Virus record (IMG/VR): IMGVR_UViG_3300022555_000019 | Length of the DNA stretch: 64,000 bases | Strand: one strand, 5' to 3' | From: an uncultured virus (IMG/VR IMGVR_UViG_3300022555_000019) | Lineage: Duplodnaviria > Heunggongvirae > Uroviricota > Caudoviricetes | Part shown: one piece after another, positions 1 through 43,273 of the stretch | Position numbering within the stretch: the stretch's first letter is position 1 | How the letters are laid out: each line of letters opens with the position of its first letter | Program-made: the position numbers and the translations under genes | Notes under the pieces: generated by a model | Told to the model about the DNA's origin: nothing | The model's database searches: none | Seen by the model: the letters and a program-made list of their open reading frames with translations, nothing else

Positions 1-664
1 CTTTTGTTTTTCTTGATAGATATTTTTGATTTAATTTTAAAGACCTTTCATAATGTTTAAGAAATCTATGGTTCTTGATTTTCGTTCCATTAGACAACAC
101 TAAAAAATCTTTTATTCCCAAATCTATTCCTACTGGCATATTCGTTTTAACCATTGGTTCATATTCCATTTCAGTCAATATACTGACAAAATACTTTCCA
201 GTAGGAGTTTTTGATATATTGCAATGTTTGATTATTCCTTTAATTTTTCTTTCCATTATCATTTCTATACCATCAAGGAACTTGGGTATAATTAGTTTTG
301 TTCCATCGTATCTAACATTTTGTGGTATAGTAAAACTATTTTTATTTTTCCTTGATTTAAACCTTGGAAATTGAGTTCTTTTATTAAAAAATCCTTGATA
401 CGCCATATCCAAACATTTTAACGAGTATTGTAGTGTCTGTGAATTTATTTCTTTTAACCAAGTATTAATTTTTTTTATCTGTGTTAGTTCAGCGGCTTGG
501 TCATAGTAGTTTAATGATTTTTTATTATTTAAATATTCATTTTTTCTTTGGTTGAGAAAATAATTAAAAGACCATCTAACAGAACCAAAATGTTTATTCA
601 GTAATGTTTTCTGCTCATCTGTAGGTTCTAACCTAAACTTGTATGTGTATTTAATTATTTTCAT
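1..664 (-). mobile_element. tnpB: TnpB (IS200/IS605-family RNA-guided nuclease), 5' part; runs off the window
   Basis: Not in the ORF track. Manual translation from ATG at 664: MKIIKYTYKFRLEPTDEQKTLLNKHFGSVRWSFNYFL...FPRFKSRK...GIDLGIKDF, a classic TnpB N-terminus plus the RuvC-I aspartate. No tnpA upstream. Confidence 0.93.
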
Positions 665-699
665 TTTCACTTATGAAAAAATCTATATTTTTGTATAAG

Positions 700-770: not shown

Positions 771-900
771 TTTTCAGTTAATCAAATGTTTAATCTAAAA
801 CAGAAAAAATGAAAAAGATTATAATGTTATTTATTGGTTGTTTTCTTTGACAATCTTTTATAAATTTTTTTTATTCATACATATTCACGATATTTGCAAA

Positions 901-1434
901 ATGAAACATCTACTCAACATAGGCAGAACAATAAGTTATCTTCTACGACACGATCCGAAAGACCTGAATATGGATAAAAATGGGTATGTTCTGGTTGAAG
1001 ATTTATTGAAAAAAATTGAAATTACAAAATCTGATTTGGATTGGATTGTTGAAAATAACGATAAAAAAAGATTTGCTTATTCAGAAGATGGTACAAAAAT
1101 AAGGGCAAGCCAGGGGCATTCCATTAAAGTTGATACTCAATTAAAAACAACCAGACCTCCAATGATTCTTTATCACGGGACCAAACTGGAAAACTTGGGA
1201 TCAATACAAAGAACTGGGCTTGAAAAAAGAAATCGCTTGCATGTTCATTTGACTGACAATTTAGATACTGCGCATGCCGTAGGTAAAAGATATTCAAAAA
1301 GATTTAAACCACTTATTCTGGAAATAAATTCTGGCGCAATGTATGCTGATGGATTTAAATTCTATTTGAGTGAAAATAAAGTATGGCTGACTGATAATGT
1401 ACCATTTAAATACATTAAAATCCAAAAACTATGA
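901..1434 (+). CDS. kptA: RNA 2'-phosphotransferase (Tpt1/KptA)
   Basis: Motifs SYLLRHDP, NDKKRF, IRASQGHS, LYHGT, RLHVHL, SENKVWL. ATG at 901 preferred over TTG at 838. Confidence 0.95.
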   Translation: MKHLLNIGRTISYLLRHDPKDLNMDKNGYVLVEDLLKKIEITKSDLDWIVENNDKKRFAYSEDGTKIRASQGHSIKVDTQLKTTRPPMILYHGTKLENLGSIQRTGLEKRNRLHVHLTDNLDTAHAVGKRYSKRFKPLILEINSGAMYADGFKFYLSENKVWLTDNVPFKYIKIQKL

Positions 1435-2137: not shown

Positions 2138-2392
2138 AAAAATCGGAGTTAAATATTTGATCTCACGCTGATTGAAAAATCAGAGGAAGTTCGCCACTAC
2201 GTTGCTCAAGGTTGGAGACCTAAACAGTCGTTTGCACAACCGAGGTAGCAATCCTAACAGTTCGAGAAGGTGAGCAATTCTAAAGAACGGGTTGGAGCAC
2301 CTCTTCATAAAGAAGAGGAAGTCGAAAGACTTAGATAAATGTGGGGTTTAAATGACAGAATGGCGGCTATAGAATATTTAACTTTGATTTTT
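2138..2392 (+). ncRNA. rnpB: RNase P RNA, minimal type-A-like form (catalytic domain, S-domain almost absent)
   Basis: P1 2138-2157/2373-2392; P2 2159-2166/2341-2348; P3 CTGATT-GAAA-AATCAG; GAGGAAGTTCGCCA (2183-2196) pairs with ACAGAA-TGGCGGCT (P4 with bulged U); P5 CTAC/GTAG followed by CAA; P6 pseudoknot TTGCTCA 2202-2208/TGAGCAA 2271-2277; conserved TAGATAAATG before the 3' strand of P2. Confidence 0.9.
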
Positions 2393-9952: not shown

Positions 9953-10094
9953 GGGGTATTGCAACTCCAAGTTGAAGGTATGCTATAATAATTACGTAAT
10001 AAAAAGCAGAGAATAAAACAGCGGTGTGGTGCAACTCAGCCGAAGCCGTTGCGCAACGGTGGATGAGAGGGAGGTTCGAATCCTTCATACCTCA
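9953..10094 (+). ncRNA. tRNA-like RNA 2 (acceptor stem + T-arm, non-tRNA interior)
   Basis: GGGGTAT/ATACCTC-A; T-arm GGAGG-TTCGAAT-CCTTC; palindrome CCGTTGCGCAACGG; shares 5' ATACGGGGnATTGCAA with RNA 1. Confidence 0.65.
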
Positions 10095-10097
10095 CAT

Positions 10098-10171
10098 GAT
10101 TCTGTAGCTCAGTTGGTAGAGCAACTGTCCCTAAAATAGTTGGTCGTTGGGTTCGAGTCCCACCAGAATCT
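10098..10171 (+). tRNA. tRNA with CUA anticodon (amber suppressor candidate 1)
   Basis: Acceptor GATTCTG/CAGAATC; D-arm GCTC-AGTTGGTA-GAGC; anticodon arm ACTGT-CCCTAAA-ATAGT (CTA 10131-10133, C at position 33); T-loop TTCGAGT with one extra T in the T-stem; no encoded CCA. Confidence 0.8.
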
Positions 10172-10880
10172 CATTTTTTTTATAATATAATAACCATTTA
10201 GAAATAGATGCCCAAGAAACTCCGTACTTTTTAGCAACAGCATTTTGGCTTGTCGTACTTATTTCTTCGATGAGCTTTTTGTATGGCGGTCTTTCAACTT
10301 TTCTTTGAGATTTTGAATAACAATCAAAGCACATTTTTGATGAATGATATATAGGCTTTCCACATTCACAATCTTTTATTCGTTTTTCTTTCCGTTTTTC
10401 TTTTTTTTGTGCTGATGGCTTATTTTTACCAGAGAATGTCCCTGTTTGAGAATGACAATTTGGGCAAATAAAACATAAATTTACTAATCTATTATCGTTA
10501 TTTATACCATTTTTATGCTCAAGTTGTAATATTAATTTTTTTCCATTCCACATTCCATCATTTCCACAATTGCATTTATATTCCAATAGATTATCTTTTA
10601 TTAATTGTTTCTTTAAATATCCCCTCGAAACAGAAGAATTTTCAACAAGTAGTTCTTCAATCTTACGTTTTCTTCCAAAGTTAGCATATTTACCAAAATA
10701 ATTGTATACTGGAATAGGAATACCACGTCTTTTTAATTCGTTTTTTACTGTTTGAAAACTGCCTGTTGTAACAGAATTATATCCAACATATCTTACAATA
10801 TCACTGAAAGATTTAGAATTATTTATCAACTCTAATAAATCATCATTTGAAAATTTGGTAAGCTTATTTTTTCTTCCCAT
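10131..10880 (-). CDS. HNH homing endonuclease
   Basis: CNCGNDGMWNGKKLILQLEHKNGINNDNRLVNLCFICPNCHSQT; C-terminal zinc finger and HTH. ATG at 10880. Its TAG stop is the complement of the tRNA anticodon. Confidence 0.9.
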   Translation of the reverse strand: MGRKNKLTKFSNDDLLELINNSKSFSDIVRYVGYNSVTTGSFQTVKNELKRRGIPIPVYNYFGKYANFGRKRKIEELLVENSSVSRGYLKKQLIKDNLLEYKCNCGNDGMWNGKKLILQLEHKNGINNDNRLVNLCFICPNCHSQTGTFSGKNKPSAQKKEKRKEKRIKDCECGKPIYHSSKMCFDCYSKSQRKVERPPYKKLIEEISTTSQNAVAKKYGVSWASISKWLLYYKKNEILVGLEPNDQLF

Positions 10881-10987
10881 AAATTTTTTATTTGTATATA
10901 TAAATATATAAAACCGACAATTTATCAATATTTAAATCCATTATGGGTTCTATTTTTTTATTAGAAAATTATTCTTATATTTGCATC

Positions 10988-11056
10988 GATTCTGTCTGCT
11001 GGAATAGAAATAAAACTCTAAATTTTATAACGTGGGTTCGAGCCCCACCAGAATCA
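10988..11056 (+). tRNA. compact tRNA with CUA anticodon (amber suppressor candidate 2)
   Basis: Acceptor GATTCTG/CAGAATC-A; short D-arm TCTG-CTGGAA-TAGA; ATAAAA-CTCTAAA-TTTTAT (CTA 11018-11020); variable AAC; GTGGG-TTCGAGC-CCCAC; TATATTTG promoter at 10976-10983. Confidence 0.75.
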
Positions 11057-11072
11057 CAAAAATATAATAACT

Positions 11073-42058: not shown

Positions 42059-43273
42059 ATGAAAAGTTATCAAATAAGATTTTTTCCAACATTAAATCAA
42101 GCACTTCAATTACAAGAATTATCTGATATTCGTAAAGATATCTGGAATACACTTTGCGATATTCAACAGCAAGAATATACAACTTCAAAAAAAATATTGA
42201 GTAAATTTGACTTGAATAATTTGCTCCCAAAATTAAAAGAGCCACATTCAGCTTGGAAAAAATTGAATGCTAAAGCTGAACAAACAATATCAACTGAATT
42301 ATATGGGGCATACCAATCATTCTTTAGATTAATTAAAAAAGATAAAACAGCAAAGCCGCCAAATAAAATTGATAATAATGATTTTCATTCAATCACGTTT
42401 AACCAATCTGGATGGGTCGTTAAATCAGATAATCTAATACAGATTAACAAAATACAATTTGAATATAGATCACACTTAAATATTCAAGAAATGATTATAA
42501 AAGAAATTAGAATCAAATTTATAAATAATAAATGGTTATGTGATTTGATTGTTGATGAACCAATAAATTATAAAAATAAATTGATTATTAAAACCAAAGT
42601 ATTAGCATTAGACCTCGGAATTGAAAAACTTGCGCATGGAATAGATAACAAGGGTGATCAAGTTATTTTGCAAAACAAATCCAGACGAATCAACCATTAT
42701 TTTCAGAGCCAAATAAAAAATGTTCAATCAAAATTATCTAAAAAACAAAAAAACTCAAGAAATCGTAAAAAAATAAAATCTACTTTAAATAAACTATATC
42801 AAAAAAAGAATGCACAAGTAAAACAAACTTTACATATTCAAAGTAAATATTTAGCGAATATGAATTACAATACTATTGTAATTGGTGATTTATCAGTTAA
42901 AAAATTAATGTCAACTGAAGGCGTAAACTCAAAGAAAAAAGGTATTAGAAAATCATTTCACCATTCTAATATCAATATGTTTTTACAATTTCTTGGATAT
43001 AAATGTCAACACAATAATACAAATGTTGTTACAATTGGTGAACAATGGACAACTCAGCTTAATTGTTTAACTGGTAAGGTATTCAAAGATAAAATAGAAC
43101 TTAAAGATAGGCAAGTTCAATTATCTGATAAAATCACTATTGATCGTGACTTAAACTCAGCCATAAATATTTTGAAACGATGGTTTGATAGTCATATTGC
43201 TTCTATGAACGAGCCTCTGGATTTATCCAGTGCTCTTGTAAAGTTCAATCTTTACAAGGAAACATTAATGTAG
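42059..43273 (+). mobile_element. tnpB: solo TnpB with rearranged RuvC-II
   Basis: SYQIRFFPT, LALDLG (RuvC-I), IVIGDL plus downstream IGEQWTTQ, DRDLNSAINI (RuvC-III); opposite strand to the surrounding operon; no tnpA. Confidence 0.9.

What the first reader, a model, noticed from the sequence alone, without database searches (positions are those of the whole stretch)
2138..2392. Phage-encoded minimal RNase P ribozyme lacking the specificity domain
Seen: this intergenic stretch folds into the catalytic domain of bacterial type-A RNase P RNA: 20-bp P1, P2, GAAA-capped P3, P4 with bulged U (AGTTCGCCA/TGGCGGCT), P5 followed by CAA, P15-P17 arm (2252-2296), a 7-bp P6 pseudoknot, two hairpins in the P18 region and no P19. 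Inside P7 (GGTTG 2210-14/CAACC 2237-41) only 22 nt remain. Established: cellular bacterial RNase P RNAs carry a large S-domain there that binds the tRNA T-loop. Inference: a ~255-nt ribozyme that borrows host RnpA or a phage protein, possibly with relaxed specificity for the odd tRNAs/tRNA-like RNAs 7.5 kb downstream.
Basis: partly seen in the sequence, partly recalled or inferred. Interest (0 to 1): 0.92.

Follow-up and report, generated by a model that had tools for sequence, protein, structure and literature searches.

The report
Phage-encoded miniature RNase P RNA
A T4-like freshwater phage carries a 255-base, roughly two-thirds-sized version of RNase P RNA, the ribozyme that trims the front end of new tRNAs; it keeps the catalytic half and replaces the substrate-reading half with a 22-base stub, and I found no paper describing such a viral gene.

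Summary

Across 47 distinct homologs from phage and metagenome contigs, 94.7% of 2,673 pair cells are standard pairs, against 32-43% when partners are slid. 47 of 59 pairs show compensatory changes, including P4 and P6, which were not in the aligning model.

The window copy itself never scores against Rfam RNase P models. Five relatives do, end to end with the S-domain skipped (E 5e-12 to 2e-6, all far below gathering). Motifs match E. coli and Bacteroidota rnpB.

The family was not found in 185,579 prokaryote species genomes by the stub pattern. tRNA arrays adjoin 5 of 13 relatives. RnpA is encoded in 1 of 16 related records and not in the window.

Best reading: a real S-domain-less RNase P RNA, probably active on phage pre-tRNAs with host RnpA. 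Catalysis and expression are untested.

Nine literature searches found no description. This scan noted similar phage RNAs in about 30 other genomes before.

The parts
2138..2392 (+). Whole mini RNase P RNA gene (255 nt, P1 to P1')
   Evidence: R1 covariance model 244.3 bits, E 2e-65; boundaries from P1 pairing
2138..2158 (+). P1 5' strand; pairs with 2372-2392
   Evidence: Inner 8 pairs tested: 8 of 8 covary, 93.7% paired
2160..2166 (+). P2 5' strand (ATCTCAC); pairs with GTGGGGT 2341-2347
   Evidence: 7 of 7 pairs covary, 90.8% paired
2168..2183 (+). P3 hairpin with GAAA loop
   Evidence: Helices 3 and 4: 99.3% and 97.2% paired
2184..2196 (+). J3/4 plus CR-I and the P4 5' strand (AGGAAGTTCGCCA, bulged U at 2190)
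   Evidence: Invariant A2184 G2185 A2187 A2188 T2191 C2192; P4 96.8% paired, 5 of 8 pairs covary, not in the model; matches GAGGAAAGTCC of E. coli rnpB
2197..2200 (+). P5 5' strand (CTAC); pairs with GTAG 2245-2248
   Evidence: 3 of 4 pairs covary, 97.3% paired
2202..2208 (+). P6 pseudoknot 5' strand (TTGCTCA); pairs with TGAGCAA 2271-2277 in the P17 loop
   Evidence: 4 of 7 pairs covary, 86.1% paired, not in the model
2210..2241 (+). P7 (GGTTG/CAACC) enclosing the 22-nt stub hairpin that stands in place of the S-domain
   Evidence: P7 97.0% paired, 4 of 5 pairs covary; stub stem 100% paired; 14 of 31 invariant columns lie here; the stub stem encloses 74 nt in L212 and 27 nt in L157
2249..2260 (+). 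CR-IV / J5-15 and P15 5' strand (CAATCCTAACAG)
   Evidence: Invariant C2249 A2250 A2251; aligns with GCAAGGCCAAATAG of E. coli rnpB
2252..2296 (+). P15-P16-P17 arm, including the L15 3' side CGGGTT (2288-2293)
   Evidence: P15 100% paired with 3 of 3 covarying, P16 94.7%, P17 95.2%; aligns with CCGGGTAGG of E. coli rnpB
2300..2331 (+). Two tandem hairpins in the P18 position; the second is GAAA-capped
   Evidence: Present with varying but paired stems in the window's subgroup; at least 18 of 47 members have only a 6-8 nt linker here
2332..2340 (+). J18/2 (TAGATAAAT)
   Evidence: Same motif in E. coli and 4 of 5 Bacteroidota rnpB
2348..2368 (+). J2/4 and CR-V with the P4 3' strand (TTAAATGACAGAATGGCGGCT)
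   Evidence: Aligns with GACAGAACCCGGCTTA of E. coli rnpB; P4 covariation

Best explanation
Window 2138-2392 (+) is a gene for a reduced, bacterial-type (type A-like) RNase P RNA carried by a T4-like phage.

Shown: it has the complete catalytic-domain architecture, namely P1-P5, P15-P17 with the P6 pseudoknot, the L15 GGU-containing loop, J18/2 and the P4 core with a bulged U. The ~150-nt specificity domain is replaced by P7 plus a 22-nt, highly conserved hairpin stub. It belongs to a family of at least 47 distinct sequences found in phage and metagenome contigs.

Inferred: it is transcribed as a small stable RNA, on its own or with neighbouring tRNA arrays, and binds an RnpA-type protein. That protein would be the host's in most phages and a phage-encoded one in LR756502. 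The complex would cleave the 5' leaders of phage pre-tRNAs and perhaps host ones. Substrate would be positioned through the acceptor-stem, leader and CCA contacts of the C-domain rather than through the tRNA elbow. This would give the phage its own tRNA-maturation capacity during infection.
For: - Structure: 94.7% of 2,673 cells paired against 32-43% in slid controls, and 47 of 59 pairs with double changes. P4 (5 of 8 pairs) and P6 (4 of 7 pairs) covary although neither was in the aligning model.
- Homology: L010/L022 copy b scores RF00010 46.4 bits, E 5.1e-12, model 1-367. L024 scores RF00010 37.7 bits, E 1.7e-8. L002, L027 and L212 score RF00373 32-35 bits, E about 1e-6, model 1-288. In each case the S-domain positions are skipped. 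All five are tied to the window by model R1.
- Motifs: identity with E. coli and Bacteroidota rnpB in CR-I, CR-IV, L15, J18/2 and CR-V.
- Strand: frequent G-U pairs, such as U-G in 39 of 47 at one P4 pair, fit only the + strand.
- tRNA link: arrays of 5-9 tRNA genes on the same strand within 2.5 kb in 5 of 13 relatives. A tRNA-Leu starts 5 nt after the RNA in L023, and tRNA hits lie directly downstream in L018 and L212.
- Protein partner: LR756502 also encodes RnpA (PF00825, 52 bits).
- Gene-like ends: TAnnTTTG lies 10-14 nt upstream in 4 of 14 loci, and hairpin plus T-run lies downstream in 3.
- Feasibility: the isolated bacterial C-domain cleaves pre-tRNA with or without RnpA, at reduced rate and affinity (PMC4919922 section 3.1, passages read).
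Against: - The window copy gives no RNase P hit in Rfam at gathering level, at E<=10 on 431 nt or at E<=1 on 5 kb.
- No family member reaches a gathering score, and only 4 of the 13 close homologs scanned score at all.
- The Rfam result is unstable: the L024 hit vanishes when a 341-nt stretch is given.
- The reciprocal test failed. R1 does not find genuine rnpB in E. coli or in 5 Bacteroidota genomes.
- There is no expression evidence and no activity test.
- The window and 15 of 16 related records lack RnpA. These include the 735-kb LR756501 and a CheckV-complete 321-kb genome.
- The window's own tRNA genes lie 7.7 kb away, and 7 of 13 relatives have no tRNA within 2.5 kb.
- The covariation alignment was fitted to the nested helices by the model, which inflates their pairing percentages. 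This does not apply to P4 and P6.
Confidence: 0.6

Rival explanations
1. RNase P-derived RNA with a changed job. The catalytic core is kept, but loss of the tRNA-elbow reader has retargeted it to other substrates: phage mRNAs or operon transcripts, tRNA-like elements, host RNAs, or atypical tRNAs only. This would parallel the way RNase MRP diverged from RNase P.
For: The S-domain that reads the tRNA D/T loops is gone, while a new 22-nt stub is the most conserved block: 12 of 31 invariant columns lie in the stub and 14 in P7 plus stub. 7 of 13 relatives have no tRNA gene within 2.5 kb. Bacterial RNase P is known to cleave non-tRNA substrates (PMC4919922 section 5.4, passage read).
Against: tRNA arrays adjoin the gene in 5 of 13 loci, and tRNA genes abut it in L023, L018 and L212. 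The L15 CGGGTT and CR-IV elements, which contact the tRNA 3' end and cleavage site in bacterial RNase P, are retained.
Confidence: 0.15
2. Decoy or regulator. The RNA is catalytically unimportant and acts by binding host RnpA, or by competing with host RNase P RNA, to throttle host tRNA maturation.
For: The C-domain holds the RnpA-binding surface. Most phage records have no RnpA gene of their own (15 of 16). An RNase P-like RNA of orthopoxviruses was inactive in vitro and was discussed as a possible decoy (PMC3001073 section 7, passage read).
Against: Elements needed for catalysis and substrate binding rather than protein binding are conserved: the bulged-U P4, J3/4 GAGGAA, ACAGAA, the L15 GGU loop and the P6 pseudoknot. 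LR756502 brings its own RnpA. These phages depend on tRNA maturation for their own tRNA arrays.
Confidence: 0.1
3. A conserved structured phage RNA that is not related to RNase P and resembles it only by convergence or chance.
For: The window copy has no Rfam RNase P hit. R1 does not find genuine rnpB. The Rfam hits of relatives are 32-46 bits against gathering scores of 84-100.
Against: Five relatives match RNase P clan models over the full model span with E 5e-12 to 2e-6, and no other Rfam family matches the element comparably. The order of P1-P2-P3-P4-P5-P6-P7 ... P5'-P15-P16-P17(P6')-P18-J18/2-P2'-P4'-P1' is reproduced, with two crossing pairings and five shared sequence motifs.
Confidence: 0.05
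4. A decaying fragment of a captured host rnpB gene with no function.
For: A truncated extra copy exists next to the full one in L022, L062, L078 and L092. L222 looks degenerate.
Against: 47 distinct sequences keep 94.7% pairing through many compensatory changes and 31 invariant columns. The family spans phage genomes from 20-kb fragments to 735 kb.
Confidence: 0.03

Closest known systems
Bacterial type A RNase P RNA (E. coli M1 RNA / rnpB, 377 nt; Rfam RF00010)
   Same: The full C-domain is shared: P1-P5, P15-P17, the P6 pseudoknot, the P4 core with bulged U, CR-I/IV/V, L15 CGGGU, J18/2 UAGAUAAAU and a GNRA-capped hairpin in the P18 position.
   Different: There is no S-domain (no P8-P14, no CR-II/III), only P7 plus a 22-nt stub. 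The RNA is 255 nt instead of 377. It is encoded by a phage. It scores below Rfam gathering or not at all. It has no P19, unlike the Bacteroidota rnpB examined. P18 is absent in at least 18 of 47 members.
Archaeal type T RNase P RNA of Pyrobaculum (Lai et al. 2010 PNAS; seen only as a reference entry in PMC4919922; the paper itself is not held; details recalled)
   Same: A natural RNase P RNA that has lost most of the S-domain yet keeps the catalytic domain. It is the closest functional analogy.
   Different: It is archaeal and cellular, and works with archaeal proteins. The phage RNA has bacterial-type P15-P17/P6 and L15. No Rfam family other than bact_a and arch matched the relatives.
Engineered C-domain-only bacterial RNase P RNAs
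   Same: The C-domain alone catalyses pre-tRNA cleavage with or without RnpA, at reduced rate and affinity (PMC4919922 section 3.1, passage read). The phage RNA is a natural counterpart.
   Different: Those are laboratory deletions. The phage RNA is evolutionarily maintained and has a conserved stub that the constructs lack.
Orthopoxvirus (camelpox) RNase P-like RNA
   Same: [quoted passage not shown]
   Different: It comes from a eukaryotic virus and showed no pre-tRNA processing activity in vitro. The similarity is described only as partial. The phage family keeps all C-domain motifs and pseudoknots.
Strongly reduced mitochondrial RNase P RNAs of yeasts (recalled, not checked here)
   Same: RNase P RNAs shrunk to little more than the P4 core.
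   Different: They are organellar, far more reduced, and depend on a large protein.

Membership tests
Bacterial type A RNase P RNA (RF00010) | P4 helix formed by CR-I and CR-V strands, with a bulged U | tested here: met
   AGTTCGCCA 2188-2196 / TGGCGGCT 2361-2368. 96.8% paired in 47 sequences, 5 of 8 pairs covary, and P4 was not in the aligning model.
Bacterial type A RNase P RNA (RF00010) | C-domain helices P1, P2, P3, P5 and P15-P17, with the P6 pseudoknot between the P5/P7 junction and the P17 loop | tested here: met
   All helices are 86-100% paired with compensatory changes. P6 is 86.1% paired and 4 of 7 pairs covary.
Bacterial type A RNase P RNA (RF00010) | Conserved single-stranded motifs: CR-IV (GCAA..CC.AA.AG), L15 GGU loop, J18/2 (UAGAUrAAU), ACAGAA of CR-V | tested here: met
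   Pairwise alignment with E. coli rnpB and motif comparison with 5 Bacteroidota rnpB; invariant columns.
Bacterial type A RNase P RNA (RF00010) | Specificity domain (P8-P14 with CR-II and CR-III) | tested here: not met
   Only 22 nt lie inside P7 (2215-2236). Rfam alignments of relatives skip about 140 model positions.
Bacterial type A RNase P RNA (RF00010) | Score at or above the Rfam gathering threshold (100 bits) | tested here: not met
   Window: no hit. Relatives: 37.7 and 46.4 bits.
Bacterial type A RNase P RNA (RF00010) | Site-specific 5' cleavage of pre-tRNA | not testable with these tools
   Needs a bench assay.
Bacterial type A RNase P RNA (RF00010) | Works with an RnpA protein | tested here: inconclusive
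   No PF00825 among 85 window ORFs. 1 of 16 related records encodes RnpA. Binding itself is not testable here.
Archaeal RNase P RNA (RF00373) and type T | Archaeal-type RNA scoring at or above gathering (84 bits) | tested here: not met
   L002, L027 and L212 score 32-35 bits. The shared core explains these hits. The P15-P17/P6/L15 region is bacterial in type.

The most novel reading that the evidence does not exclude
Phages of many lineages carry a dedicated, S-domain-less RNase P ribozyme. Its 22-nt conserved stub would be a new minimal substrate- or protein-docking module. The enzyme would have relaxed elbow recognition, letting it mature atypical phage tRNAs, such as the D-arm-shortened amber-suppressor tRNA 8.6 kb downstream of the RNA. 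It would also keep phage tRNA supply independent of host RNase P, and so act as part of a phage tRNA supply-and-repair toolkit together with the adjacent Tpt1.
Probability: 0.25. Interest if true: 0.9.

Novelty: new variant of a known kind. Interest (0 to 1): 0.85.

Why it matters
RNase P RNA is treated as a strictly cellular and organellar gene. A conserved viral version would add a ribozyme to the list of translation-related genes that phages carry.

It would also provide a natural experiment on how little RNA a bacterial-type RNase P needs. The only natural S-domain-less form I know of is archaeal type T, which I recall rather than checked here.

The finding makes several questions directly testable:
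- how substrate is recognised without the tRNA-elbow reader;
- what the invariant 22-nt stub does;
- whether phages rely on host RnpA.

It also offers a compact (about 200-255 nt), natural RNase P scaffold for structural and engineering work.

Tried and rejected
- Rfam on the window copy, three ways (gathering; E<=10 on 431 nt; E<=1 on 5 kb): no RNase P hit.
- Rfam on L024 alone (341 nt) lost the hit seen, so short-stretch scans are unreliable.
- Reciprocal search of R1 against E. coli rnpB and 5 Bacteroidota genomes: no rnpB recovered.
- Expression: no RNA holder is listed among 14 runs that hold the locus.
- Own genome: not held. The nearest record, G001, is a 23-kb fragment.
- Search for a conserved neighbouring protein partner: none. 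The best shared neighbours are a radical-SAM gene in 4 of 14 loci and Tpt1 in 2 of 14.
- Encoded CCA in neighbouring phage tRNA genes: a crude string test gave 11 of 34, some of them false positives. This is not informative about the L15 motif.
- Stub-independent pattern (J18/2 plus CR-V) in viral contigs: 118+ stretches, of which 80 were examined with R1 and 10 matched. Of 20 put through Rfam, only L212 was RNase P-like, so most are chance matches.
- L007 is a chance match in a coding repeat.
- The 17 genome contigs pattern hits all fail R1.
- A protein-coding reading was rejected: only ORFs of 42-94 aa overlap the region, and substitutions are compensatory in helices.
- The minus strand was rejected because of the G-U pairs, although its MFE z-score is equal.
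- Correction: an earlier count said 15 of 31 invariant columns lie in 2213-2239. The checked count is 14 in 2210-2241 and 12 in 2215-2236.

Full report
**Observation.** The stretch 2138-2392 lies between two small + strand ORFs (1912-2124 and 2543-2806). It is overlapped only by ORFs of 42-94 aa.
- a 20-21-bp P1 (2138-2158 / 2372-2392);
- P2 (2160-2166 / 2341-2347);
- a GAAA-capped P3 (2168-2183);
- P4 (AGTTCGCCA / TGGCGGCT) with a bulged U;
- P5 (CTAC / GTAG) followed by CAA;
- a 7-bp P6 pseudoknot (TTGCTCA 2202-2208 / TGAGCAA 2271-2277);
- P7 (2210-2214 / 2237-2241) enclosing exactly 22 nt;
- the P15-P17 arm (2252-2296);
- two hairpins (2300-2318 and 2320-2331);
- J18/2 (TAGATAAAT), and no P19.

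The single-sequence fold is unusually stable (-73.5 kcal/mol, z = -4.27, 0 of 200 shuffles as good). The minus strand is equally unusual (z = -4.30), so this alone says little.

**Relatives.** blastn against 50,697 phage records found only three. These are the 735-kb LR756501 and LR756503 (81.6% identity over query 55-270) and the 642-kb LR756502 (74.7% over 84-161). In each, the match is confined to the RNA core and does not extend into the flanks.

The most conserved block lies inside P7, and patterns built from it retrieved further loci:
- 9 and then 16 viral-contig loci, one of them a chance coding match (L007);
- 94 metagenome stretches, of which 80 loci were fetched;
- 17 loci from the collection of 185,579 prokaryote species.

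I seeded a covariance model, R1, from six close sequences. Its structure was specified by hand and deliberately left out P4, P6 and the P18 hairpins. R1 recovered:
- 14 distinct full-length RNAs among the phage loci (76-255 bits);
- matches in 54 of the 80 metagenome loci;
- none of the 17 prokaryote-genome loci.

R1 found no second copy in the window. A stub-independent pattern (J18/2 plus CR-V) added a few more members (10 of 80 loci). The combined set has 63 full-length rows, 47 of them distinct, with R1-matched lengths of 194-267 nt.

**Structure test.** I counted pairs for the full structure, with P4 and P6 written as pseudoknots.

| Measure | 14 sequences | 47 distinct sequences |
|---|---|---|
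| Cells forming standard pairs | 96.3% of 804 | 94.7% of 2,673 |
| Same, with partners slid 1-3 columns | 31.8-41.9% | 32.4-43.0% |
| Pairs with changes on both sides | 46 of 59 | 47 of 59 |

In the 47-sequence set, 0 of 500 column shuffles reach the observed value on four measures and 1 of 500 on the fifth. Per helix in that set:

| Helix | Paired | Pairs that covary |
|---|---|---|
| P1 | 93.7% | 8 of 8 |
| P2 | 90.8% | 7 of 7 |
| P4 | 96.8% | 5 of 8 |
| P5 | 97.3% | 3 of 4 |
| P6 | 86.1% | 4 of 7 |
| P7 | 97.0% | 4 of 5 |
| Stub stem | 100% | 1 of 3 |
| P15 | 100% | 3 of 3 |
| P16 | 94.7% | 4 of 4 |
| P17 | 95.2% | 3 of 4 |

Two caveats apply. The alignment was fitted by the model to the nested helices, which flatters them. 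P4 and P6 were not in the model, so their covariation is independent. The two outer P6 pairs are weak, so the solid part of P6 is 5 bp. Frequent G-U pairs, such as U-G in 39 of 47 sequences at one P4 pair, fix the + strand.

**Is it RNase P RNA?** The evidence is mixed but favourable.

Against: the window copy gives no RNase P hit in Rfam at gathering level, at E<=10 on 431 nt or at E<=1 on 5 kb.

For: of the 13 other distinct homologs scanned, 4 match RNase P clan models from the first to the last model position, with the S-domain positions skipped:
- L010/L022 copy b: RF00010, 46.4 bits, E 5.1e-12;
- L024, a member of the window's close group: RF00010, 37.7 bits, E 1.7e-8;
- L002 and L027: RF00373, 32.4 and 34.8 bits, E about 1e-6.

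A fifth, more divergent relative, L212, does the same (RF00373, 34.7 bits). All of these are far below the gathering scores of 84-100 bits. The scan is also unstable: the L024 hit disappears when only 341 nt are supplied.

The reciprocal test failed. R1 finds neither E. coli rnpB nor the genuine rnpB in five Bacteroidota genomes. Each of those genomes has one ordinary rnpB at 204-259 bits.

Direct comparison with E. coli rnpB (fetched) and with those five rnpB genes shows the same order of elements and shared motifs:
- GAGGAA..TC (CR-I);
- GCAA..CC.AA.AG (CR-IV);
- CGGGT.GG.GC (L15 3' side, shared with E. coli);
- TAGAT.AAT (J18/2);
- GACAGAA...CGGC.TA (CR-V).

Taken together, the evidence makes homology with the RNase P C-domain the only economical reading. 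I put it at about 0.9. This rests on two crossing long-range pairings in the RNase P-specific positions, five shared motifs and the Rfam matches of relatives.

**What replaces the S-domain.** Inside P7 only 22 nt remain. They form a 3-bp hairpin (GAC/GTC, which covaries with GAT/ATC) with conserved flanks. This is the most conserved part of the RNA: 14 of the 31 columns invariant in 47 sequences lie in P7 plus stub, and 12 lie in the stub itself. In L212 the same stem encloses 74 nt, and in L157 it encloses 27 nt. The stub therefore looks like the base of a once-larger arm, and less-reduced relatives still exist. Its role is unexplained.

The P18 region is optional. At least 18 of 47 members have only a 6-8 nt linker there. 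The window's subgroup has two hairpins with varying but paired stems, and the second is often GNRA-capped.

**Context.** The window is phage DNA. Pfam finds a T4-type terminase, Gp20-like portal, Gp23-like capsid protein and prohead protease. None of the 85 ORFs scanned is an RnpA. A Tpt1/KptA RNA 2'-phosphotransferase (150 bits) lies about 700 nt upstream of the RNA, and the same order recurs in L013 (69% identical). Two amber-suppressor tRNA-CUA genes lie 7.7 and 8.6 kb downstream.

Among the 13 other loci:
- 5 have arrays of 5-9 tRNA genes on the same strand within 2.5 kb;
- in L023 a tRNA-Leu starts 5 nt after the RNA;
- L018 and L212 have tRNA hits directly downstream.

PF00825 (RnpA) was sought in 16 related records and found in one, LR756502. 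The hit scores 52 bits, covers profile positions 4-104 of 109, and contains KRAVDRNRVKRLMRE. It is absent from LR756501 (735 kb) and from a CheckV-complete 321-kb record. Most of the other records are fragments.

No protein gene is consistently adjacent to the RNA. The best shared neighbour is a radical-SAM gene in 4 of 14 loci.

An exact TAnnTTTG lies 10-14 nt upstream of P1 in 4 of 14 loci, and a hairpin plus T-run follows the RNA in 3. My reading of TAnnTTTG as the Bacteroidota -7 promoter element is recalled, not checked. The window copy has neither feature. It is followed by a T-run directly after P1.

**Mechanism.** The most likely mechanism, at about 0.6, is an active, S-domain-less RNase P that matures phage pre-tRNAs together with an RnpA protein. 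That protein would be the host's in this phage and phage-encoded in LR756502.
- Shown: the architecture, its conservation, the retention of catalytic and substrate-contacting elements, and the tRNA neighbourhoods.
- From the literature: the isolated bacterial C-domain cleaves pre-tRNA with or without RnpA, with lower rate and affinity, and the S-domain supplies D/T-loop contacts (PMC4919922 section 3.1, passages read).
- Inferred: transcription, protein use, activity and any relaxed specificity.

The rivals are a retargeted RNase P derivative (0.15), an RnpA decoy (0.10), an unrelated structured RNA (0.05) and a decaying relic (0.03).

**Expression.** No RNA run holds the locus. The 14 runs that hold it are lake and freshwater DNA libraries, and three of them may be the source of this DNA.

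**Novelty.** Nine full-text searches found no paper describing a phage-encoded RNase P RNA. I read passages of five candidate papers. The nearest precedent is an orthopoxvirus 'RNase P-like RNA' that was inactive in vitro (PMC3001073 section 7). The Pyrobaculum type T paper is not held, and I cite it from the reference list of PMC4919922 and from recall. Most subscription journals are not in the library, so prior description cannot be excluded.

This scan's own earlier notes report similar miniature RNase P RNAs in about 30 other phage genomes. None concerns this sequence or genome. I used those notes only as leads.

Noticed in passing
window 10040-11057: Two paralogous amber-suppressor tRNA-CUA genes (10098-10172 and 10988-11057) with identical acceptor stems flank an HNH homing-endonuclease ORF on the minus strand (10134-10928). 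The second tRNA has a shortened D-arm region. A T-arm-like GGAGGTTCGAATCCTTC lies just upstream of the first tRNA and was not called as a tRNA.
   Followed up: partly
window 838-1431: A Tpt1/KptA RNA 2'-phosphotransferase (PF01885, 150 bits), a tRNA splicing/repair enzyme, lies about 700 nt upstream of the RNA. The same order and strand recur in L013 (3442-3966, 69% identical).
   Followed up: partly
L022 2605-2725 (-); also L062, L078, L092: A truncated copy of the RNA (model positions 21-150: P3 to P17, with no L15 3' side, J18/2 or P4 3' strand) sits directly 5' of the full copy. Its CR-I (GAGAGGAAAGTCGGGTC) is closer to the bacterial consensus than that of the full copy.
   Followed up: partly
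L029 1435-1803 (LR756502 ~525.1-525.5 kb): The 642-kb phage encodes an RnpA homolog (PF00825, 52 bits) about 90 kb from its mini RNase P RNA. That makes it a phage with both RNase P subunits.
   Followed up: partly
L212 420-626 (-), L157 254-420, L222 312-477: These are divergent relatives. In L212 the stub stem encloses 74 nt and in L157 27 nt, so their S-domain remnants are larger. L222 is a 166-nt weak match lacking P5-P7 and may be degenerate.
   Followed up: partly
L024 2436-2668: The Rfam scan is unstable. RF00010 hits at E 1.7e-8 when the whole locus is scanned with six others but gives no hit when only 2380-2720 is given. A negative short-stretch scan should not be read as absence.
   Followed up: yes
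L001 1746-2330, L013 4046-4732, L020 3196-3793, L021 2736-4076: A radical-SAM gene neighbours the RNA in 4 of 14 loci. In L021 it is fused to a methyltransferase domain.
   Followed up: partly
window 2-670, 42059-43270, 25970-47498: There is a transposase fragment at the left edge and an IS605 OrfB/TnpB-like gene at 42059-43270. A roughly 20-kb cluster of glycosyltransferase, sugar-nucleotide and methyltransferase genes lies inside the phage, next to its T4-like structural module.
   Followed up: no
L008 1-143: A weak group I intron match (RF00028, 28 bits, E 6e-4, cut at the 5' end) lies between a tRNA array and the mini RNase P RNA.
   Followed up: no
L141-L145 (Bacteroidota rnpB): Three of the five Bacteroidota rnpB genes examined lack the CGGGT L15 motif, which the phage RNAs share with E. 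coli. The phage RNA therefore does not look like a recent copy of such a host's rnpB.
   Followed up: no
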